DNA of 10,337 nt, from the NCBI GenBank assembly GCA_030668825.1, contig DAOVET010000093.1, positions 1 to 10,337 on the forward strand, in the 5' to 3' direction. Under the pieces are notes generated by a model. The model was not told the DNA's origin, searched no databases, and saw nothing but the letters and a program-made list of their open reading frames with translations. This DNA is from Candidatus Heimdallarchaeota archaeon (GTDB lineage: Archaea > Asgardarchaeota > Heimdallarchaeia > Heimdallarchaeales > Heimdallarchaeaceae). Shown here piece after piece: positions 1 through 9,625 of this stretch (positions are counted from its first letter, which is position 1; each line of letters opens with the position of its first letter). The position numbers and the translations under genes are program-made.

Positions 1-708
1 TGATGTTGGTGCAACGGGAGTTGGTTCAAATTCAGCATCTTCAGCTTCATCTGTTCTTGATTTTCTTTTTGCTAAAGCATCTTTGACTTCTAGGTTAATT
101 GCCATGCTAGCAGGCATCGAACCTTCCACTCCCCCTGCAGCTGCTTCTCTTTCTTTCCTGTGCTCATCAGGATTAACCTTTGTTAATCCAGATCTAACAT
201 CTTGGATGTCAGTAGCACTAACTCCAAATGGACTAAAGACTGGTGCTGCTCCAGGCGCACCAGGATCTCCTGGTACAGGTTCTGGTGCTTTTTGTAAATT
301 GGATGCTGCTTTCATAAGATCGGAACTACTGATTCCACCTCCTGTGGATCCTTGAGTGCCAGATGGTGCAGGAATACCTCCCCCGTCTCCTACTGGAGCA
401 GATAAATTGGGTGCTCCAACTGTACCTGCGTTGCTTGCAGTTAAATTAGGCGCTGATGTCGATACAGGGGTAGCAACAGGTGATTGAAATGAAGGTGCAG
501 CTTGAGGTGAAACGCCCAATGCATGTTCAATAGCATTGATTCTATTAGTAAGAGTGTCAATATAGTCTTCCATTCGTTCTGTACTTCTAATCATGATCAC
601 CCCAAAATTTTCTATTAATTTGGTAATTTTCATGATTGCTTTCTTAGACGGTTCTGCTGTATCTGATAACAGGCCGTCTAGATAGTCGTCGATTGACACA
701 TGTATCAT
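1..708 (-). CDS. Hypothetical protein, 3' end outside the window (>=236 aa): N-terminal coiled coil, Pro/Gly/Ser/Ala-rich disordered linker, two WH2-like repeats, basic-ended helix and acidic patch; candidate actin-regulator-like protein
   Basis: Manual translation from ATG at 708-706 (alternative GTG at 699-697) is open to base 1: MIHVSIDDYLDGLLSDTAEPSKKAIMKITKLIENFGVIMIRSTERMEDYIDTLTNRINAIEHALGVSPQAAPSFQSPVATPVSTSAPNLTASNAGTVGAPNLSAPVGDGGGIPAPSGTQGSTGGGISSSDLMKAASNLQKAPEPVPGDPGAPGAAPVFSPFGVSATDIQDVRSGLTKVNPDEHRKEREAAAGGVEGSMPASMAINLEVKDALAKRKSRTDEAEDAEFEPTPVAPTS. Co-oriented with its neighbours, with an AT-rich TATA-like element upstream. Confidence refers to it being a CDS; the function is a hypothesis. 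Confidence 0.88.
   Translation of the reverse strand, partial: MIHVSIDDYLDGLLSDTAEPSKKAIMKITKLIENFGVIMIRSTERMEDYIDTLTNRINAIEHALGVSPQAAPSFQSPVATPVSTSAPNLTASNAGTVGAPNLSAPVGDGGGIPAPSGTQGSTGGGISSSDLMKAASNLQKAPEPVPGDPGAPGAAPVFSPFGVSATDIQDVRSGLTKVNPDEHRKEREAAAGGVEGSMPASMAINLEVKDALAKRKSRTDEAEDAEFEPTPVAPTS
175..336 (-). repeat. Two-copy internal protein repeat (WH2-like): GISSSDLMKAASNLQKA (336-286) and GVSATDIQDVRSGLTKV (225-175)
   Basis: The two 17-aa segments align without gaps to G-[IV]-S-x-[ST]-D-[LI]-x-x-[AV]-x-S-x-L-x-K-[AV] and are separated by a 20-aa Pro/Gly-rich spacer. Confidence 0.7.
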
Positions 709-726
709 GTGAACACAAAAAATATA

Positions 727-735
727 ATATAAAAA
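727..735 (-). promoter_or_regulatory. Putative archaeal TATA box for the left-edge ORF
   Basis: Minus strand reads TTTTTATAT, about 20 nt upstream of ATG708 and about 29 nt upstream of GTG699. AT-rich context, so the site is not unique. Confidence 0.4.
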
Positions 736-805
736 GTCTATGTTACTCCTCATATTATGTGTAGCTAGAGAGAGTAAGAGAAAATTGTTAAAAGACAATG
801 AATCT

Positions 806-1893: not shown

Positions 1894-3438
1894 TCAGTGA
1901 AATTTAACGGGTTCTGGGAGTTTATCAATGTATTTAAGGAATTTATTTGGCCAGTTATCTTTATCCAAACCTTTCTGAGAAATGAAAGCTGTAAGAAATC
2001 TCTCGAAACTACCACCACCGCATCCTGACCATAATTCAATATTTCCTTCAGCTTTGACAGAGAAGCCTTTTGGATATTTCTGACCTATTATAGAAATATT
2101 CTGAATTTCTAACCATTCACTTTCTTCTCGACTTCCTCTATATGGCATATAAGCTTCATAGTCAATGGTTCCAACAACTAAATCTTCAGCTGAATCCATC
2201 TCATCCTCATGAGCAGATTGTTGTAACCACCATGGAGTAACCTTGGCTTCTCTAACCTCTAAATCAAGAACTTCTTCAAAGATAACTCTAAGTTTGTCTT
2301 TTACAGCCATACCTATTTGTTTAACTTGCTCAGGAGAACCTATGAATAATGTTTCAATACGGTGCAATTCATCAACTCGTTCAAATCCGTAAGCACTACC
2401 TGACTCATAGCGATAAGTGGGGCCACTCCAGTCATAAACCTTGATTGGAAGACTTTCTTTAGCAAGAGTTTTACCCTGAATCCAAGCCCAGAAGGGAGGA
2501 CATTGAGCATAAGACAATCCCCCAATAGGAGCTGATACTTTCTCAGCAAGTTTCTCTAATGGGATAGTTTTTGTGATGGTAATATAATCCGCAATTTCTT
2601 CAAAGTATTCGGGGTCAGCAGATTTAGGTTGAACTACAAAATAGGGTTCAAAACCCCCTTGATAAATACCTTCAGCATGTTCAGATCTCAACCAAATTGA
2701 CCAATCCACCAATTTTGGTATCATCATTTGATTGAACCCTAAAGGCTCATAGACATAATCTATCATAATATGTTTTAATGCTTCAGCTAAAGCAGTTATG
2801 GTGGGAGAAAGTATCCATTGGTTTCTGTAATTTGTTCGTTGAATCCAATTAGCTTTTTGCATCATTTGAGTAGGATTTTCTTCAGTATGATGTTTCTTTT
2901 CCCCACTATACCAGGAAATTTGATGATGTTCCCTTTTAGCACCATAATGCTGTTTAGAAATTTTTTCACCTACTCGACGTACAATACGTTCAATAGCTCC
3001 TTTTTCTACAAAATCTTCTTCAATTTCTGGATCAATTTCGATTTTAACATAACTCTTTCCTTTTTCTTCAAAAAATTCTAGGTTTTTTACTAATGGTAAA
3101 GTGAACTCTTTAACAGGCTTTTCTTCCAATTCTGTTTCAATGATGTATTTGATAAAAGCAAAACCTCTTAGTCCTACACGATATTTTTTACCTATTGCAG
3201 CAGAGAGCTTTTTCCTTAATCTGAGTACTGCCACATGTGGAGATAGTGAATCAACCGATGAAATTGTTATATCAAGTTTAGTTCCCTTGGTTTTCCATTC
3301 GGTGATCTTGAATTCCCCTTTATCTCTTGATTCTTGAGTTTTTTCAGTAAATTGTTTGAAAAGTTCTTCAATTTCACCCTTACTTTCAGGAGGTAAGGGT
3401 CCACTTAATGTAAATTGTACTTCGAGATAGTGTTTCAT
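1894..3438 (-). CDS. serS: Serine--tRNA ligase, type 2 (methanogen-type, zinc-dependent SerRS), 514 aa
   Basis: Full-length resemblance to Methanosarcina-type SerRS as I recall it: N-terminal tRNA-binding domain (RLRKKLSAAIGKKYRVGLRG), YGAKREH, PKLVDWSIW..SEHA, YAQCPPFW (Zn Cys), motif 2 YRYESG..GFERVDELHRIE (Zn Glu), VTPW..Q serine-ordering loop, WLEIQNIS..GQKYPKGF, LWSGC (Zn Cys), ER and QKGLD..NWP. Confidence 0.95.
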   Translation of the reverse strand: MKHYLEVQFTLSGPLPPESKGEIEELFKQFTEKTQESRDKGEFKITEWKTKGTKLDITISSVDSLSPHVAVLRLRKKLSAAIGKKYRVGLRGFAFIKYIIETELEEKPVKEFTLPLVKNLEFFEEKGKSYVKIEIDPEIEEDFVEKGAIERIVRRVGEKISKQHYGAKREHHQISWYSGEKKHHTEENPTQMMQKANWIQRTNYRNQWILSPTITALAEALKHIMIDYVYEPLGFNQMMIPKLVDWSIWLRSEHAEGIYQGGFEPYFVVQPKSADPEYFEEIADYITITKTIPLEKLAEKVSAPIGGLSYAQCPPFWAWIQGKTLAKESLPIKVYDWSGPTYRYESGSAYGFERVDELHRIETLFIGSPEQVKQIGMAVKDKLRVIFEEVLDLEVREAKVTPWWLQQSAHEDEMDSAEDLVVGTIDYEAYMPYRGSREESEWLEIQNISIIGQKYPKGFSVKAEGNIELWSGCGGGSFERFLTAFISQKGLDKDNWPNKFLKYIDKLPEPVKFH

Positions 3439-3517: not shown

Positions 3518-5260
3518 TTATTTTTTATTCGTATAATCTTCTTGTATTTGCAGATATTCTTTAAGAATCCCTTTCAAAGAGTCTTGAGTAATTCTTGAAT
3601 CTTCTGTAATAAGACCATCAGAAATACGAAGATGTCTGAAACCAGGTCTTAATAGAGATAAATCATGAGAACACATGATGAAGGTAGCATTATTCTCTTT
3701 TACGAAACTCATTAAAACATCCATAATTTCTCTTGCTAAATCAGAGTCCATATTCGCTGTTGGCTCGTCTGCAAGCAGAATTGGCGTTTTTCGAGTAAGG
3801 GCTAAGGATAAAGTTGCTCTCTGTTTTTCACCAGCTGATAATTCATCAGGATATGATTCTAATTTATGACTGATATGAACATTTTTAGTCACTTCATTTC
3901 CAATATCTGGGTTGTATTCCTTGCCAAGAAATATGTAAGGAACTAATAGATTGTCTTTCAGTTGTATTGGTTCAAACAGACTATGATATTGAGTGATATA
4001 GGCGATGTTCTCCAATCTGAAATCTGATCTGGATGTATCATCTGCTTTTCCCATTGAATAGTCGTCAATGCGCACAGATCCCTTATCAGGAATCAAAAGC
4101 CCTGCAATAGTATTAAGTAAGGTGGTTTTTCCTACTCCAGAAGGACCAGAGATAAAAAGAAAGTCTCCTTTCTTAATAGTAAGATCTATGCCTTTGATGA
4201 CCGGATGAAGTTGACCAAAAACCCAATAACCCTTTTCTAATCCTTTTATGCGAATATAGTCCTTAGCTTTTGGATTGTATTTGAATTCATTCTCGAAAAG
4301 ATATCGAACATCGTCAAATGAAAGTTCATCCACTGTTTCTTTATATTCATCTGGAGGTTGTTGAAGGATATTGAAAACTTCTTCTTTAGTAACCAAATCA
4401 GGATTCCAAAGCATTGCTAGTTTCTTTGAAGGATGAACTTCAAATTCAGCGAATTCTCGAAGAGCGATTGAATTCTTAACTCTATCCGGAATTTGAAGCA
4501 TATGAGAAGGATCAATGTAAGCACGGTTCAATTCAGAAGAATCCTTAAAAATATCTAACTTTTGTCTTTCTTTTTCATACCCCACGCCAACAAGCCTTCC
4601 ATCACGAATGAGGAAGCTCTTTTCGAAAACATTTCGATATCGAACATCATGAGTGACAATAACCATGGTAGTTCCAAGTTCTTTGTTAACTCCCTTCAAA
4701 GTGTCAATAATGCTGAAAGTGTTCTTCGAATCTAATTGACCTGTAGGTTCATCTGCTAGAATAAAGTGTGGTTGTCTTGCCAAAGCTATAGCAATGGATA
4801 ATCTCATCGATTCTCCCCCACTTATTTTTGCTGCTTTATTGTTTTTCACATGCGTCAGATTGAATAATTTGAGTAATTCTTCCATTTCTTTTCTGGCCAT
4901 TTCTCTTGGAGTATATTTCATTTTCATAGGCATTAGAACATTATCTCTAACTGTTAGTTGTGAGTAGAGATTCTTGCTTGTAAATTGATTTACAAGACCT
5001 ATGTTTTCATATCTGAATTTTCTTCTTTCTTTTTCAGTTAGTAAATCAAGTTGTACCCCTCTTATCATCACCAACCCACCAGTTGGAGTATCAACCCCTG
5101 ACAGAATGTTCATTAAAGTGGTCTTACCTGCTCCTGAAGGACCGATGATCGAGACAAGTTCCCCATCCCCTATATCTAAATCTAGTCCTCTTAAAGCAGA
5201 TACTTTGTATTCTGTTACAGGATCGTGGTAAATTTTTATAACATCTACACATCTTATCAT
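3518..5260 (-). CDS. ABC transporter ATP-binding protein with two tandem LolD/MacB-family NBDs and a central AbrB/SpoVT-like segment, 580 aa
   Basis: NBD1: Walker A GPSGAGKT, signature ISGGESMR, Walker B/D-loop ILADEPTGQLD, H-loop VTHD. NBD2: GPSGVGKT, LSAGEKQR, LLADEPTANMD, CSHD. The DEPT..LD form is typical of the LolD/MacB/FtsE family. Linker contains AYIDPSHMLQIPDRVKNSIALREFAEFEV. Confidence 0.93.
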   Translation of the reverse strand: MIRCVDVIKIYHDPVTEYKVSALRGLDLDIGDGELVSIIGPSGAGKTTLMNILSGVDTPTGGLVMIRGVQLDLLTEKERRKFRYENIGLVNQFTSKNLYSQLTVRDNVLMPMKMKYTPREMARKEMEELLKLFNLTHVKNNKAAKISGGESMRLSIAIALARQPHFILADEPTGQLDSKNTFSIIDTLKGVNKELGTTMVIVTHDVRYRNVFEKSFLIRDGRLVGVGYEKERQKLDIFKDSSELNRAYIDPSHMLQIPDRVKNSIALREFAEFEVHPSKKLAMLWNPDLVTKEEVFNILQQPPDEYKETVDELSFDDVRYLFENEFKYNPKAKDYIRIKGLEKGYWVFGQLHPVIKGIDLTIKKGDFLFISGPSGVGKTTLLNTIAGLLIPDKGSVRIDDYSMGKADDTSRSDFRLENIAYITQYHSLFEPIQLKDNLLVPYIFLGKEYNPDIGNEVTKNVHISHKLESYPDELSAGEKQRATLSLALTRKTPILLADEPTANMDSDLAREIMDVLMSFVKENNATFIMCSHDLSLLRPGFRHLRISDGLITEDSRITQDSLKGILKEYLQIQEDYTNKK

Positions 5261-5269
5261 TTTTTTTCA

Positions 5270-8200
5270 CTACTCCAGATTCCTTGGCATATATTTTGCA
5301 TAATTTCTTTTCATCGACAGATAAAATATCCCCATGAATAGTACAGGTGCTACTACATACGCGATAATAAACGCTACTGCGTTGAATTTCCACAGATAAT
5401 TTATTCCACTATAGAAGAATCTCTTCGTTGCCCAGGTGAATCCCCACATTATAGCGAACCCCACCCCTGTTCCTAATATCAACCCTGGTATAATTCCAGT
5501 AAACATCGCTTCGAACATCGTTAATCGTATAATTCGTTTCGTCGATATTCCCATTTTCTTCAGTCTATCATTTTTTGTTATTCTTTGTTGCAGAATCTTT
5601 ATGGGATTGCTTATGCTTATGAAAGCTATAGCTATTAGACACACTAGCATTGAAAGAGCGAATTCTGCCGAAACTATGTTGAAGAATGGAAATGTTTCAA
5701 ATTGCCTTTCATCACTATCAGTAATTGCTGAATCTATGCCTAGGTTCAATTCTTCAGTTAGATAATGCTCTATCAATGTAAAATTTGCATTTTCTGACAG
5801 CCTAATGAGTAACCTATCTTTATATTTCTCACTTGCGATGTTCACAGTTTCTCTTATTCTCTCAAAATTAGATTGTGTCATTACCACACCTGCGATTCTA
5901 ACAGTTACTCCTGGAATATACTCTCCTGATGTATAAAAAACAGGAATGTAGTTGAATATGTCATATATTTCGAATGTTAAATTCATTGGTGGAAAGAGTG
6001 ACTCAAATTCGAATTCATATTTCTCTCCTGCTCTATCATCATAGAAATATTTTGTGCTAAGCATTGTGTCATTAGCTTCTAGTGCCGTTATTGTCTCTTC
6101 CCAATTATTAAATAGCCTACTTGGAGGCGTATATACCGTGTTCAAGAATTCAGTAGTATTCTCTATCAGATACACTGCTAATGGTTCAAAATCATAACTA
6201 GCTTCTACTTCATGAACAAACGCAGTGCTTTCTACTCCTTGTATAGCTTGAATCTCTGGCAACAGAGATTGATTCTGATCCATCCAATTCTTAACGTATA
6301 TATCTGCACCATTATACAAATATGCATCTTTATCATAATTGAATTCTACAGTTAAGGGGCTCATAATTGATGGTATAGTAATCCCTACTATTAGTAGAAA
6401 AGCAAAGAACATGTTACTGAATAGTTTGATGTCTGATCGAACTTCAACTAAAGTAAATGACCCTATAGTTTTTCTCCGATTCCACGAAATTTTGCTTATT
6501 GCGATCATAATAACTCCATGCAAATCTTTGAGCAATAATCCAATACCTAGTAGAGCTAATAGAACACCTAAGCCTGCAAGATAGACATTAATCATTAGTA
6601 TTGATGTATTTCCTATAGAGGATAGGTTTCTTAGATTTACTTTGTACAAACTGAAGAAAAGTAGAGTTAGACCTATACCAACTCCAATCAGTAGTATTGT
6701 TGGAAGTCTTATTTGTTTTAACAGAGTAACAAGTCTTTGAGGAGTTTTTTGGAAAGTGGTTTTCTTTGTTGAAACTTGTATAATCTTTGGTATAGAGACC
6801 ACTATTAAGGCCGTTATAGTAAATAGTGTGGCCCATCCTAAACCACTGAAATTCAGTACTTGATTCTGCTGGTTGAATGTAAGAAAGGAATCAACTTTCA
6901 GTAATGGAGGTACTAAAGCAAAAGATAAGCCAAACCCGACAAATGATGCTGCTATAGCTTCAAAAATCTTCAAAATCATATAATTAAAGGCTATTCTTCC
7001 AGAAGATAGTCCTTTTGTTTGAAATATTTCTATTTCTTGTTCTAGTCCTTGCGAATACAACTCATTTGTTTCAAATATCAGGAAAATTGCCAAATATAGA
7101 ATTGGTACAGCTAACATGAAAAACAGTAGCATTGATGATTGAATTCTCGGTTCGAGAATCTCTATCATTTTATCTAATTCAGTGTTAAAATCCCAATATC
7201 CATTTTTCATATCTCCAGTGAATTTAAAAAAGTGATAGTTCTCAGATATTATTGCAATGTCTTCCTTTAACTGAGTTAGCATCTCAGGTTTGAAATTACT
7301 GAAATCATAATAGAGTTGTACATAAGTATTTACGAACATATAGTATGGATTTAATCCTTCTAAGTTAGCCCAAGCATTTTCACCAAAAGAGACCATTCCT
7401 CCATAAAGGTTAGTTAAAACTTGAGCAGAATCCATGGGAAGATTATAATCAGTCCAAATTCTTTCAAAATCTGCTGGACCTGGAGATTCAAATAATCCGA
7501 CAATTGTTAGGTTTACATGTGTATCTCCTAGATAAGTATTATAAGAACCAATTTGAGATCCCCAGAAAGTGATTGTGTCATCTACTGTAACATTCAAATT
7601 TATGGTAGGAATATGATCAACAGTATGAGCAATATCATAATGTAATAAGACTTCTCCTGGTGCATATGGCAATCTTCCCTCAACTATGAACTCATTTATG
7701 AAATCGCTGTAATTGTTTGATACAGCCATATATGTTACAACTCTTAAAGAACTAGTATTAGACGTCATGTCCTCTATCATTCCATAGAACTGCGTCGAGT
7801 ATTCAAACCCACTCACAATACTCGCAAAAACTTCTTGTTCTAGTTTAAATCCTGTGAAAATTTCACTTAATGCAACTTGCTCATAATTTTGGACAGCTGG
7901 AATGCTTACATCTTGGGTTCTTGTATCGTAACTGTAAGATAAAGATAAGCTTTCTTTTCCATCATTTAGTATGTTTAGAGTATTTGTATATTCATCAAAC
8001 AATACTTCTCTCTTTGAACTATAAAGTGCAGTACTTGTTAGTATAATTAAAGCCAAAACAGTCATGCTAATTAGATTCATCAGATGACGTTTCTTGTTTG
8101 TTTTAAAAAGATCAAAAAGTGATGAGAAGAAATTAGAGATAAATACCCAGGAATTGATAAAAGGTAAAAAGAGTTTGTTCTTATCCTCATAAATTGGTCT

Positions 8201-9625
8201 GGTCAAGTATCTTTTAATTATAATGAAACCTCTTTTTACTCTCTTTCTAAGCAATATGATAATAAGAGCTAAAACTGATCCAGCAACTATTAAATAAATG
8301 CCAACGTTCTTGAAAAAGATCTGAAATCTATTTAGTTCCTCTAAACCAAGAAAACCAAGTTTCTTAAATTCTTCAATATCATAATCTGAGGAAACATAGA
8401 ATGCAATCATCTCCTCTTCTGAAAAGATACGACCTGGCAGATCTCCTTGTGCTAAAAGCGTTGTATGTGTAAATATTCTTTTTCCATCTTCTGTTTCATA
8501 AACATAGAATGAATGATAATTATCTTTGTCAGGGACATTATAAATGAAGATTTCTTCTTTTGTGAAACTGGTATAGTCGTCAGTTATAATAGCAACCTTT
8601 GACTTCAGGTTATTTCCAGAGAAAAATTCCTCTGTACTAACATGGGGTTCTGAGTCAATAATATATTTTGAGTTGTTTTCTCCTTGAGCAACATAAAAAT
8701 TATTGTATGGATAAACTCCTGTGGTTGTAACATTGAAATCAGCGAAATCAATAGTTTGGTTTATAGAATATTTTAGACGATAAATCTTATCGTCTCTTGC
8801 CATTACTAAACTGAAATTTCCATCATTTGTTAAATAAAACCTCGGATCAAATCCTCCTTCAAGTAGAATCATAGAATTTGACACATAAGAATCGTTGTAC
8901 CCTTTCGTAACTATTGTTGTATACGTGTGTTCATAGGAAAATCTAGGAGTTTCTCTATACAAACTATAGATTGTACCATTGACATAGTGATAATCAACTA
9001 AATAATCAAATTCTGCATCAAGAATCCATCTCTCCTCAAGAATATGTGAGCCATTTTCATAAAATCGTGTCATTTCAAACCTTGTTGTAGCAATTTCTGA
9101 TGTTGGAGGCCAATTTTGAATGAAAGCTAAAACCATAACCATTGTGTTATTTTCTTCATGGTATAGTTTCATACGAGGATAGTTCATGTTAGCGTTGTAA
9201 GCATAAAATTCCTCATCACTTGGACCAGCTGTTTCTGTCCAGATGTATCTATGGAATTTCATATAGCCAAAGAAAGTGTGAAATGCATAAAATAATTCAA
9301 TCCCCCCTTCTATAGTGAACAACTCGAAATAGTCAATATTGAAATCCTCGATTATTACGATGTTGGTTTCATCATTTACCTTATGAATTATCATAAATGT
9401 ACTATTTTCATATAAAATTCGTGCGAGAAAATGAAAATTACCTGAAGTATCTACAATTGATTTAGTTTCTATACCTATTTCATCTCCTGTTCTGTTAAGG
9501 AGTAAGAATAGCTCATCATCCATTTCTATTTGAGCATTCACTCTCAATTGCTGACTAAGTGATACTGTTGATGAAACAAATAAGATTATCATGAATAATA
9601 GATAAAGGGGCTTTTTTCTCTTCAT
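5270..9625 (-). CDS. Large ABC permease, FtsX/MacB (type VII) family, with two fused permease halves and an additional N-terminal extracellular domain, 1451 aa
   Basis: Signal or anchor sequence (MKRKKPLYLLFMIILFVSS), then ~400 aa hydrophilic aromatic-rich domain and a TM helix (VGIYLIVAGSVLALIIILLRKR). MacB-PCD motifs IVEGRLP..PGEVLL and NLTIVGLF; FtsX motif EQEIEIFQTKGLSSGRI; second half with NGADIYV and QRITKNDRLKKMGISTKRIIRLTMFEA. Stop codon is 9 nt from the ATPase start, consistent with an operon. Confidence 0.9.
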   Translation of the reverse strand: MKRKKPLYLLFMIILFVSSTVSLSQQLRVNAQIEMDDELFLLLNRTGDEIGIETKSIVDTSGNFHFLARILYENSTFMIIHKVNDETNIVIIEDFNIDYFELFTIEGGIELFYAFHTFFGYMKFHRYIWTETAGPSDEEFYAYNANMNYPRMKLYHEENNTMVMVLAFIQNWPPTSEIATTRFEMTRFYENGSHILEERWILDAEFDYLVDYHYVNGTIYSLYRETPRFSYEHTYTTIVTKGYNDSYVSNSMILLEGGFDPRFYLTNDGNFSLVMARDDKIYRLKYSINQTIDFADFNVTTTGVYPYNNFYVAQGENNSKYIIDSEPHVSTEEFFSGNNLKSKVAIITDDYTSFTKEEIFIYNVPDKDNYHSFYVYETEDGKRIFTHTTLLAQGDLPGRIFSEEEMIAFYVSSDYDIEEFKKLGFLGLEELNRFQIFFKNVGIYLIVAGSVLALIIILLRKRVKRGFIIIKRYLTRPIYEDKNKLFLPFINSWVFISNFFSSLFDLFKTNKKRHLMNLISMTVLALIILTSTALYSSKREVLFDEYTNTLNILNDGKESLSLSYSYDTRTQDVSIPAVQNYEQVALSEIFTGFKLEQEVFASIVSGFEYSTQFYGMIEDMTSNTSSLRVVTYMAVSNNYSDFINEFIVEGRLPYAPGEVLLHYDIAHTVDHIPTINLNVTVDDTITFWGSQIGSYNTYLGDTHVNLTIVGLFESPGPADFERIWTDYNLPMDSAQVLTNLYGGMVSFGENAWANLEGLNPYYMFVNTYVQLYYDFSNFKPEMLTQLKEDIAIISENYHFFKFTGDMKNGYWDFNTELDKMIEILEPRIQSSMLLFFMLAVPILYLAIFLIFETNELYSQGLEQEIEIFQTKGLSSGRIAFNYMILKIFEAIAASFVGFGLSFALVPPLLKVDSFLTFNQQNQVLNFSGLGWATLFTITALIVVSIPKIIQVSTKKTTFQKTPQRLVTLLKQIRLPTILLIGVGIGLTLLFFSLYKVNLRNLSSIGNTSILMINVYLAGLGVLLALLGIGLLLKDLHGVIMIAISKISWNRRKTIGSFTLVEVRSDIKLFSNMFFAFLLIVGITIPSIMSPLTVEFNYDKDAYLYNGADIYVKNWMDQNQSLLPEIQAIQGVESTAFVHEVEASYDFEPLAVYLIENTTEFLNTVYTPPSRLFNNWEETITALEANDTMLSTKYFYDDRAGEKYEFEFESLFPPMNLTFEIYDIFNYIPVFYTSGEYIPGVTVRIAGVVMTQSNFERIRETVNIASEKYKDRLLIRLSENANFTLIEHYLTEELNLGIDSAITDSDERQFETFPFFNIVSAEFALSMLVCLIAIAFISISNPIKILQQRITKNDRLKKMGISTKRIIRLTMFEAMFTGIIPGLILGTGVGFAIMWGFTWATKRFFYSGINYLWKFNAVAFIIAYVVAPVLFMGIFYLSMKRNYAKYMPRNLE

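What the first reader, a model, noticed from the sequence alone, without database searches (positions are those of the whole stretch)
175..336. Tandem 17-aa repeat resembling WH2/beta-thymosin actin-binding motifs
Seen: GISSSDLMKAASNLQKA and GVSATDIQDVRSGLTKV align gap-free with G, S, D, S, L and K identical and I/V, S/T, L/I, A/V, A/V conservative. They are the only such ordered elements within a Pro/Gly-rich stretch. Established: WH2 is a short amphipathic helix followed by an LKKT/LKKV-like tetrapeptide, and tandem WH2 arrays nucleate actin by themselves (Spire, Cobl, Vibrio VopL/VopF). Inference: LQKA and LTKV are LKKV equivalents. The 37-aa start-to-start spacing could bridge two actin subunits, and oligomerisation through the N-terminal coiled coil would multiply the sites.
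Basis: partly seen in the sequence, partly recalled or inferred. Interest (0 to 1): 0.7.

Follow-up and report, generated by a model that had tools for sequence, protein, structure and literature searches.

The report
Tandem WH2-like motifs, Heimdall scaffold protein
Two copies of a short, strongly conserved docking motif in an unannotated scaffold protein of Heimdall-group Asgard archaea resemble the actin-monomer-binding sites of eukaryotic actin regulators, but they fail the formal family tests and actin binding is still untested.

Summary
Window 175-336 (- strand) encodes residues 122-175 of a 264-aa protein, and the two 17-aa elements align as described. In one sequence the likeness is marginal (76 of 1000 shuffles reach it). 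At family level it is a true repeat (hhalign 96.4%, E 1.1e-09). An AF2 model gives each element a 10-residue helix that stops just before an extended L-x-K-[V/A].

The protein is a scaffold found in one order of Heimdall-group archaea, one gene per genome. It has an N-terminal coiled coil, a disordered PNL-rich arm, 2-3 such motifs, a basic helix, an acidic patch and an invariant C-terminal helix. Divergent members carry canonical LKKV.

Against WH2 membership: the Pfam WH2 model hits 0 of 35 members and nothing in the genome. The helix-to-L spacing is shorter than in the VASP G-actin site. The window's own motifs (LQKA, LTKV) have one basic residue.

Actin binding could not be tested, because the one complex job was not folded. 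My best reading is a WH2/VASP-like multivalent G-actin recruiter, at about 0.4. An ESCRT-type or other partner remains open. The scan met this family before in at least seven other genomes.

The parts
1..708 (-). 5' part (residues 1-233 of 264) of the scaffold gene. It is cut by the contig start. The start codon is ATG 708 or GTG 699.
   Evidence: ORF. P0002 (264 aa) is 100% identical. Contig C120 carries an 89% identical variant of the 3' part with the stop codon. A public contig runs 3152 nt beyond window base 1 with 0 differences over 1-537.
721..736 (-). A+T-rich TATA-like box about 20 nt upstream of ATG 708. Seen by eye and not tested.
   Evidence: Read directly from the sequence. No promoter scan was run.
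514..696 (-). N-terminal conserved helical (coiled-coil) domain, residues 2-62.
   Evidence: Mean share of the commonest residue is 0.81. AF2 helices at 3-12 and 19-61, pLDDT 79-85. PDB profile hits are coiled coils only. Weak Pfam CCDC53 matches.
349..513 (-). Disordered Pro/Ala/Gly arm with A/G-P-N-L-S repeats, residues 63-117.
   Evidence: pLDDT below 50 for 64-121. P97 and N98 are invariant, and repeat number varies from 2 to about 16 among relatives.
286..336 (-). Repeat 1 (R1), residues 122-138: N-cap S124, helix 125-134, C-cap N134, then L135-Q-K137-A, followed by P139.
   Evidence: L135 and K137 are invariant in 32 of 32, A138 and P139 in 31 of 32. Helix 125-134 in the AF2 model. The repeat HMM scores 41.6 bits at C81:271-348.
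226..285 (-). Pro/Gly linker between the repeats plus the FSPF lead-in of R2, residues 139-158.
   Evidence: pLDDT below 50 for 139-156. Variable in length and sequence.
175..225 (-). Repeat 2 (R2), residues 159-175: N-cap S161, helix 162-171, C-cap G171, then L172-T-K174-V.
   Evidence: S161, L172 and K174 are invariant in 32 of 32; G171 in 29 of 32; V175 in 30 of 32. Helix 162-171. Repeat HMM 45.8 bits. Strain variants at residues 171, 173 and 174 are all synonymous.
133..171 (-). Charged helix straight after R2 (P-D-E-H-R-K-E-R...), residues 177-189.
   Evidence: AF2 helix 177-189. H180, R181, E183 and R184 are present in 29-30 of 32 rows.
49..111 (-). Basic helix, residues 197-217. It is a degenerate third repeat, and by eye it is like the F-actin site of VASP.
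   Evidence: AF2 helix 197-217. K206 is invariant. It takes the place of the third LKK repeat of three-repeat relatives.
1..54 (-). Acidic patch with a nearly invariant Phe (F224), followed by the start of the last linker. The invariant C-terminal helix (residues 238-262) lies beyond the window.
   Evidence: The C-terminus is seen in P0002 and in L002. AF2 helix 238-262, pLDDT about 80.

Best explanation
Shown. The two elements are two copies of one short linear motif. Each copy is a capped, roughly 10-residue amphipathic helix followed at once by an extended L-x-K-[V/A] and then a Pro or Asp-Pro. The copies are the first two members of an array of 2-3 motifs in a mostly disordered scaffold protein. 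That protein occurs once per genome in one order of Heimdall-group Asgard archaea. Its layout is: N-terminal coiled coil, PNL-rich floppy arm, motif array, basic helix, acidic patch, invariant C-terminal helix.

Inferred. Each motif folds on binding to a globular partner, and the most likely partner is monomeric actin. [quoted passage not shown] The L-x-K-V stretch would run along the actin surface towards the acidic pair that corresponds to Asp24/Asp25 of eukaryotic actin (numbering recalled). This is how WH2, beta-thymosin, the VASP G-actin site and the LKKT-like linker of Asgard gelsolins bind.

Joined into an oligomer by the N-terminal coil, the protein would gather several actin monomers. 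It would then feed or seed filaments, like Ena/VASP or tandem-WH2 proteins.
For: 1. True repeat: hhalign R1 against R2 gives 96.4%, E 1.1e-09. Column permutation: 11 of 1000 reach the observed score.

2. Purifying selection on exactly the WH2-critical positions.
- L135, K137, S161, L172 and K174 are invariant in 32 of 32 rows that reach down to 28% overall identity.
- Natural strain variants inside G171-L-T-K174 are all synonymous, while the linker at 189-192 takes replacements.

3. Shape.
- AF2 gives helices 125-134 and 162-171 that end just before L135 and L172. The tetrapeptides are non-helical.
- The N-cap is Ser in 27 of 32 rows (R1) and 32 of 32 (R2). The C-cap is Asn or Gly in 26 of 32 (R1) and Gly in 29 of 32 (R2).
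- The 11-residue hydrophobic moment is 0.56-0.57, against a protein mean of 0.29 with sd 0.16.
- This is the WH2 definition of PMC8102491, read as passages.

4. Canonical tetrapeptides in relatives. R2 reads LKKV in 8 of 32 rows and LKKA in 1. The three-repeat proteins of a sister family carry LKKV, LKKV, LKSV or LSKA, LKKA, LKKA.

5. The partner is present and eukaryote-like. The genome has two actins about 60% identical to animal actins. The acidic pair is kept (G-F-A-G-E-D). The genome also has gelsolins.

6. Precedent. In crystal structures, Asgard gelsolins contact actin through an LKKT-like motif (PMC9433394, passages). Arcadin-2 binds crenactin's groove with a short helix on a floppy linker (PMC5173319, passages).

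7. The architecture parallels the VASP EVH2 module. The G-actin site, F-actin site and coil are printed in PMC10340426, section 3.4.

8. One array per genome across the order: the repeat HMM hits 42 of 83 genomes of the class, with f1 27/30, f3 3/3 and f4 9/12.
Against: - Pfam WH2 (PF02205) hits 0 of 29 and 0 of 6 divergent members at E<=10. It also finds no match in the six-frame genome at E<=10.
- The repeat profile against the PDB at E<=10 gives 2 unrelated chains and no WH2, thymosin or VASP chain.
- The window's own tetrapeptides are LQKA and LTKV. Each has one basic residue, where the signature quoted in PMC9433394 asks for two.
- The helix hydrophobics lie at -7 and -4 from the Leu. In the printed VASP G-actin site they lie at -9 and -5 (by eye). 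There is no spacer between the helix cap and the Leu.
- The windows with the highest hydrophobic moment include L-x-K itself. A continuous helix, as in ESCRT tail motifs, is therefore not excluded.
- No cytoskeletal gene neighbours. The conserved neighbours are a threonine aldolase and a metallo-beta-lactamase-fold protein.
- The array is confined to one order, whereas actin, gelsolin and profilin are Asgard-wide.
- No binding evidence of any kind exists. The AF2 confidence of the motif helices is only 56-70.
Confidence: 0.4

Rival explanations
1. The motifs are docking helices for a partner other than actin. The leading candidate is the MIT domain of the Vps4-type ESCRT ATPase (an MIM1-like motif). 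Another hub protein is also possible. On this reading the scaffold recruits membrane-remodelling or other machinery.
For: - The hydrophobic pattern Phi-x-x-A-Phi-x-x-L-K-K of the three-repeat relatives matches the leucine spacing of the MIM1 consensus L-x-x-R-L-x-x-L-K. That consensus is recalled from memory, not taken from a call.
- The genome encodes an MIT-domain protein, 49.2 bits.
- The amphipathic moment peaks over windows that include L-x-K.
- Two earlier notes of this scan (e1-5449725, e1-5639249) judged an ESCRT tail motif an equally good fit.
Against: - The MIM1 Arg position holds Ala or Val in 13 of 13 repeat units.
- MIM1 motifs sit at the C-terminal end of ESCRT-III proteins (recalled). 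These motifs are internal and tandem.
- The repeat profile finds no ESCRT-III chain in the PDB at E<=10.
- AF2 ends the helix before the Leu, and a Gly or Asn cap sits there in 30 of 32 (R2) and 26 of 32 (R1) rows.
Confidence: 0.2
2. The helices have no external partner. They pack within the protein or between its chains (auto-inhibition, condensate or gel formation), or they act as spacing elements of a structural scaffold.
For: - The protein is mostly disordered: 108 of 264 residues have pLDDT below 50. It has several short amphipathic helices and an oligomerising coil.
- No family, PDB or Atlas hit points to a partner.
Against: - Invariance of single residues (L, K, S) over an order-wide clade, and a fixed 33-42 residue spacing, fit a specific interface better than bulk properties.
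- AF2 shows no packing of these helices on the coil: pTM is 0.21.
Confidence: 0.15
3. The protein is a WASP/WAVE/WASH-type nucleation-promoting factor. R1 and R2 act as V, the basic helix as C and the acidic patch as A, and together they activate an Arp2/3-like complex.
For: - The order of parts is coil, Pro-rich arm, two V-like motifs, a basic helix, then an acidic patch with a nearly invariant aromatic residue, F224.
- Weak Pfam matches exist. The WASH-complex subunit CCDC53 matches the N-terminal helix in 7 of 35 proteins scanned, one of them over the cut-off (25.5 bits against 24.6). Myo1_CA matches in 1 of 29 at E=1.
- An ARPC4-like ORF is in the genome, 32.2 bits.
Against: - No ARPC2 at E<=1 in the genome, which is 90.6% complete. 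Only two near-identical canonical actins match the actin model, with no clear Arp2 or Arp3.
- The acidic patch has Phe where WASP-family proteins have Trp (the Trp is recalled).
- In three-repeat relatives the 'C' helix is simply a third LKK repeat.
- A further invariant helix follows the acidic patch.
Confidence: 0.05
4. Chance similarity of two low-complexity stretches with no function.
For: In the single sequence, 76 of 1000 shuffles reach the observed score.
Against: hhalign gives 96.4%, E 1.1e-09. Residues are invariant in 32 of 32 rows. The repeat HMM recovers 2-3 copies per genome across three families. Variants inside the motif are synonymous only.
Confidence: 0.02

Closest known systems
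WH2 domain / beta-thymosin motif (Pfam PF02205). Definition from PMC8102491, passages read: an N-terminal amphipathic helix plus a C-terminal LKKV motif.
   Same: A short capped amphipathic helix is followed by an extended Leu-x-Lys-Val/Ala. The motif is disordered when free. It occurs in tandem copies separated by Pro/Gly linkers. Relatives carry canonical LKKV. R2 is followed by a second helix, as in beta-thymosin (that layout is recalled).
   Different: No Pfam match in 35 of 35 proteins scanned. There is no spacer between the helix cap and the Leu. The window's own copies hold one basic residue. Actin binding is untested.
Ena/VASP EVH2 module: G-actin site 223-239, F-actin site 259-278 and tetramer coil 343-380 of human VASP, as printed in PMC10340426, section 3.4.
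   Same: A Pro-rich arm is followed by an L-x-K-V site and then a basic helix. By eye, residues 201-216 share 5 identities and 4 conservative pairs with 16 residues of the printed F-actin site. An oligomerising coil is also present, so the protein is multivalent.
   Different: The coil is N-terminal, not C-terminal. There is no EVH1 domain. There are two to three G-actin-site-like copies. No Pfam VASP or WH1 match appeared. An extra acidic patch and a C-terminal helix are present.
LKKT-like 'WH2-like' linker motif of Asgard two-domain gelsolins (PMC9433394, passages; PMC13716822 and its preprint, passages).
   Same: These are from the same organisms and would contact the same actin. They carry an L-[K/R]-x-[V/T] tetrapeptide that touches actin in crystal structures.
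   Different: There the motif follows the long helix of a folded gelsolin domain. Here it stands alone on a disordered scaffold.
Arcadin-2 of Pyrobaculum (PMC5173319, PDB 5LY3; passages read).
   Same: An archaeal protein whose core is joined by an unstructured linker to a short conserved helix. That helix docks in the hydrophobic groove of an archaeal actin.
   Different: Arcadin-2 has a single C-terminal helix built around a Trp, and it acts as a depolymeriser. There is no sequence likeness and no LKK motif.
Tandem-WH2 nucleators (Spire, Cobl, Vibrio VopL/VopF). Recalled from memory, not from a call.
   Same: Two to four motifs about 30-40 residues apart, combined with an oligomerising part.
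   Different: No sequence relation was shown. Nucleation is untested.
ESCRT-III MIM1 tail motif. The consensus is recalled from memory.
   Same: The leucine spacing followed by Lys. An MIT-domain protein is present in the genome.
   Different: No Arg at the key position in 13 of 13 repeat units. The motifs are internal and tandem. AF2 ends the helix before the Leu.

Membership tests
WH2 domain (PF02205) | Match to the Pfam WH2 profile | tested here: not met
   0 of 29 family members, 0 of 6 divergent members and the window protein itself match at E<=10. The six-frame scan of the own genome gives 0 matches at E<=10 with 12 candidates scored.
WH2 domain (PF02205) | N-terminal amphipathic helix of 2-3 turns (PMC8102491) | tested here: met
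   AF2 helices at 125-134 and 162-171, pLDDT 56-70. Ser N-caps and Gly/Asn C-caps. Hydrophobic moment 0.56-0.57 against a mean of 0.29.
WH2 domain (PF02205) | C-terminal LKKV-type motif, extended: Leu, two basic residues, Val or Thr (PMC9433394) | tested here: inconclusive
   L and K are invariant in 32 of 32 rows for both copies, and both tetrapeptides are non-helical in AF2. The window has LQKA and LTKV. Full LKKV occurs in 1 of 32 rows (R1) and 8 of 32 (R2).
WH2 domain (PF02205) | Usual register between the helix hydrophobics and the Leu | tested here: not met
   By eye against the printed VASP G-actin site: hydrophobics at -9 and -5 there, at -7 and -4 here. There is no spacer after the cap.
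WH2 domain (PF02205) | Binds G-actin in the barbed-face hydrophobic cleft | not testable with these tools
   The single complex job (own actin + ATP + residues 115-188) was not folded. No other route was taken.
Ena/VASP (EVH1, Pro-rich region, EVH2) | EVH1 domain and a C-terminal tetramerisation coil | tested here: not met
   No WH1/EVH1 or VASP_tetra match in 35 proteins scanned. The only long helix is N-terminal.
WASP-family VCA | Acidic tail with a conserved Trp, and an Arp2/3 complex to act on | tested here: not met
   A Phe (F224) stands in the acidic patch instead of a Trp. ARPC2 is absent at E<=1 and only an ARPC4-like ORF is present, in a genome that is 90.6% complete. Myo1_CA matches 1 of 29 at E=1.
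ESCRT-III MIM1 | Arg inside the Leu triad, and a position at the C-terminal end (recalled consensus) | tested here: not met
   Ala or Val at that position in 13 of 13 repeat units. The motifs are internal. No ESCRT-III chain appears in the PDB profile search.
CCDC53/WASHC3 N-terminal helix (PF10152) | Pfam match over the gathering score | tested here: inconclusive
   7 of 35 proteins match. One is over the cut-off (25.5 bits against 24.6, a relative in genome G016) and six are under it. The window protein itself does not match. Coiled coils often match by composition.

The most novel reading that the evidence does not exclude
These are the first free-standing WH2/beta-thymosin-type G-actin-binding motifs outside eukaryotes and their pathogens. 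They would be borne by an oligomeric, VASP-like actin-assembly factor in the archaeal lineage closest to eukaryotes. That factor would be the actin nucleator or elongator that has not been found in Asgard archaea, and possibly a forerunner of the eukaryotic WH2 motif.
Probability: 0.3. Interest if true: 0.85.

Novelty: new variant of a known kind. Interest (0 to 1): 0.55.

Why it matters
The papers I could search name only profilins and gelsolins as Asgard actin regulators (passages in 10.1101/2025.11.30.690169, PMC12050087, PMC11853071). None of my six searches turned up a free-standing WH2 protein, a nucleator or an elongation factor from Asgard archaea. How these cells start and extend actin filaments, for example in their protrusions, is therefore open.

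This family gives a concrete, cheap test: two peptides, four point mutants and one 264-aa protein. If it binds actin, multivalent monomer delivery would be placed before eukaryogenesis. If it binds something else, it still defines a new conserved docking motif of Heimdall-group archaea.

Tried and rejected
- Complex prediction. After many queue-full answers the job was accepted and came back NOT FOLDED. The tool does not pair a eukaryote-like chain with a microbial one, judged by likeness. This is no evidence either way.
- Pfam and NCBIfam on the window protein: 0 families.
- Family profile against the PDB: 4 weak hits, mostly coiled coils.
- Repeat profile against the PDB: 2 unrelated hits.
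- Whole-library HMM search: only 13 proteins at E<=0.001. All are family members or fragments, except P0186, a 572-aa repeat protein that is probably a chance match.
- ESM Atlas. For the whole protein, the nearest clusters are unnamed Asgard hypotheticals at 0.82-0.84, which is a lead only. For residues 115-264 among named clusters there was no usable hit.
- HMMs of the repeat and of the C-terminal helix against all 19,203 six-frame ORFs of the genome: only this gene's two contig pieces hit. The next best E-values are 1 and 0.35.
- RNA evidence: no RNA holder is listed. The one run guessed to be RNA covers only parts of the neighbouring aldolase gene and is probably DNA.
- My first idea, a WASP-type V-V-C-A factor, was dropped. 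The reasons are the three-repeat relatives and the missing ARPC2.
- Fold search was not run, because the model is mostly disordered (pTM 0.21).
- PMC4884163 (the WH2 review) is not held.
- Supplements were not consulted. The supplementary tables of the Asgard crawling-motility paper (PMC13716822) and its bioRxiv preprint (10.1101/2025.11.30.690169), which reports the co-immunoprecipitation of actin partners, might list a relative of this protein.
Full report
WHAT IS THERE

The finding lies on the - strand in an ORF that starts at ATG 708 or GTG 699 and runs off base 1 of the window. The window is the start of contig C81 of its assembly, so the gene is cut. Three results supply the rest:
- A database protein, P0002 (264 aa), is 100% identical over the window part and gives the full length.
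- A second contig end (C120) carries an 89% identical variant of the 3' part, with the stop codon.
- A public contig covers window 1-537 without a difference and runs 3152 nt further.

Window 175-336 corresponds exactly to residues 122-175.

IS THE REPEAT REAL?

The two 17-mers align without gaps with 6 identities, as described. BLOSUM62 is 33, the best 17-mer pair in the protein. However, 76 of 1000 shuffles of the protein reach that score, so one sequence alone does not prove a repeat.

With family profiles the case becomes clear:
- The same pair is again the best, and 11 of 1000 column permutations reach it.
- All nine other pairs of blocks stay at 14.2% or below.

THE FAMILY

The first search found 60 relatives (E<=0.01 among 1973 candidates). 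Where a source names them, they are hypothetical proteins of Heimdallarchaeota, Heimdallarchaeaceae or 'Asgard group'. I aligned 29 of the 60, chosen to span the identity range with fragments and near-duplicates left out (A1). I later added three divergent genome-derived members (A3, 32 rows).

Distribution:
- An HMM search of 1.84 billion representatives found only 13 proteins at E<=0.001.
- In 400 genomes of the phylum the whole-protein profile hits 30: f1 26/30, f4 2/12, f13 1/5.
- A 27-position HMM of the repeat alone (A4, 13 units from 5 proteins) hits 42 of 83 genomes of the class: f1 27/30, f2 1/1 (weak), f3 3/3, f4 9/12, f5 1/22 (weak), f6 0/2, f7 0/12. Nearly all hits are 2-3 copies in one ORF per genome.
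- In the window's own genome, only this gene matches among 19,203 six-frame ORFs.

ARCHITECTURE

- Residues 2-62: conserved helices 3-12 and 19-61 (pLDDT 79-85).
- Residues 63-117: a disordered arm with P-N-L repeats.
- R1: helix 125-134, then L135-Q-K-A-P.
- A Pro/Gly linker.
- R2: helix 162-171, then L172-T-K-V, then D/N-P.
- Helix 177-189.
- Basic helix 197-217.
- An acidic patch with F224.
- A linker.
- An invariant C-terminal helix, 238-262.

Relatives vary on this plan. A short form in another family has only the coil, the arm and the C-terminal helix. Three-repeat relatives have a third LKK repeat where the window protein has the basic helix.

CONSERVATION OF THE CRITICAL RESIDUES

They are invariant: L135, K137, L172 and K174 in 32 of 32 rows, down to 28% overall identity. 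S161 is invariant as well.

The tetrapeptides are:
- R1: LQKA 26, LSKA 3, LTKA 2, LKKV 1.
- R2: LTKV 22, LKKV 8, LTKI 1, LKKA 1.

Cap residues also fit a short helix. The N-cap is Ser in 27 of 32 rows (R1) and 32 of 32 (R2). The C-cap is Asn or Gly in 26 of 32 (R1) and Gly in 29 of 32 (R2). Strain variants seen in metagenome contigs are synonymous at residues 171, 173 and 174, and N176D restores the family consensus. The linker at 189-192 takes several replacements. The L-to-L spacing is 33-42 residues in 31 of 32 rows and 60 in one.

IS IT A WH2 DOMAIN?

By the definition in PMC8102491 (passages), a WH2 motif is an amphipathic helix plus an LKKV motif that extends along actin. The shape is met: the AF2 helices stop just before the Leu and the tetrapeptide is not helical.

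By sequence it is not a member:
- Pfam WH2 hits none of 29 + 6 proteins at E<=10, nor the window protein.
- It finds nothing in the six-frame genome.
- The repeat profile finds no WH2, thymosin, VASP or ESCRT-III chain in the PDB.
- The window's copies have one basic residue, where the signature quoted in PMC9433394 has two.
- By eye, the helix hydrophobics sit two residues (the distal one) and one residue (the proximal one) nearer the Leu than in the VASP G-actin site printed in PMC10340426.

I therefore file it as WH2-like in design and not as a WH2 family member.

DOES IT BIND ACTIN?

This is not shown. The context is favourable. The genome has two actins about 60% identical to animal actins, gelsolins and an ARPC4-like ORF. 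It has no ARPC2 and no Pfam-detectable profilin, in a genome that is 90.6% complete.

Precedents exist. Asgard gelsolins touch actin through an LKKT-like stretch (PMC9433394). Arcadin-2 docks a short helix on a floppy linker into crenactin's groove (PMC5173319).

The one complex job I had was not folded by the tool's pairing rule. The key inference therefore stays an inference.

RIVALS

The leucine spacing of the three-repeat relatives also fits the recalled MIM1 pattern of ESCRT-III tails, and an MIT-domain protein is present. Against this, the key Arg is absent in 13 of 13 units and the motifs are internal.

A WASP-type reading was my own first idea. It has weak support. CCDC53 matches in 7 of 35 proteins, one just over the cut-off, and Myo1_CA matches once at E=1. 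It lacks an Arp2/3 complex to act on.

Gene neighbours do not help. The order threonine aldolase, this gene, metallo-beta-lactamase-fold protein is conserved across genera.

LITERATURE

Six searches and passages of eight papers show WH2-like motifs in Asgard archaea only inside gelsolins. The text names profilins and gelsolins as the main regulators. I found no free-standing WH2 protein or nucleator reported. I did not see supplements.

EARLIER NOTES OF THIS SCAN

The same family was met in at least seven other genomes. Those agents reached the same verdict: VASP-EVH2-like layout, fails sequence tests, actin binding untested. I took from them the VASP comparison and the arcadin-2 lead, and I checked both in the papers.

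New in this report:
- The hhalign proof of the repeat.
- The invariance test with divergent members.
- The order-wide repeat scan.
- The cap and AF2 evidence for helix plus extended tetrapeptide.
- The synonymous-only strain variants.

VERDICT

My best reading is a multivalent WH2/VASP-like G-actin recruiter at about 0.4. A non-actin partner is about 0.2, and an internal or structural role about 0.15.

Noticed in passing
window 1-411 and G000:C120:1-419 (L002): Two contig ends overlap inside this gene at 89% identity. Metagenome contigs show many variants at 44-260. Strain mixture probably broke the assembly here. Conserved gene order in two other genera shows that C81 and C120 belong to the same locus.
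   Followed up: partly
residues 25-108 of relatives; L035:1498-2439 residues 23-67; L041:1441-1863: The N-terminal helix gives recurring weak Pfam matches to CCDC53 (WASH complex subunit 3). This holds for 7 of 35 proteins, one of them over the gathering score (25.5 bits against 24.6). It may be coiled-coil composition only.
   Followed up: partly
G000:C94:21613-21918 (L005:1480-1980, - strand): A 166-aa ORF matches Pfam ARPC4 over the cut-off (32.2 bits), while ARPC2 is not found.
   Followed up: partly
L041:1441-1863 (genome G113) and P0189: Short and variant forms of the family exist. One is a 140-aa protein with only the coil, a Pro-rich arm and the C-terminal helix. Another is a 452-aa form with different internal helix repeats. 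The C-terminal helix is the most widely kept part.
   Followed up: partly
window 5270-9625 and 3518-5260, - strand: A 1451-aa multi-pass membrane protein has only a sub-threshold FtsX-type permease match at its end (23.9 bits against 25.5). It lies next to a 580-aa protein with two ABC ATPase domains (LolD/FtsE-like). Together they look like an unusually large MacB/FtsX-type exporter.
   Followed up: no
window 1894-3438, - strand: A methanogen-type seryl-tRNA synthetase matches NF002120 at 472 bits, under that model's 611-bit cut-off.
   Followed up: no
L003:91-1236 and L004:1492-2685: The genome has two closely similar canonical actin genes. One has an extra basic N-terminal extension of about 18 residues.
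   Followed up: no
P0186 (572 aa, source unknown): A protein built of about ten 57-aa repeats matched the R1-R2 region of the family profile at E 1.3e-10 in 8 stretches. It is probably a compositional match.
   Followed up: no
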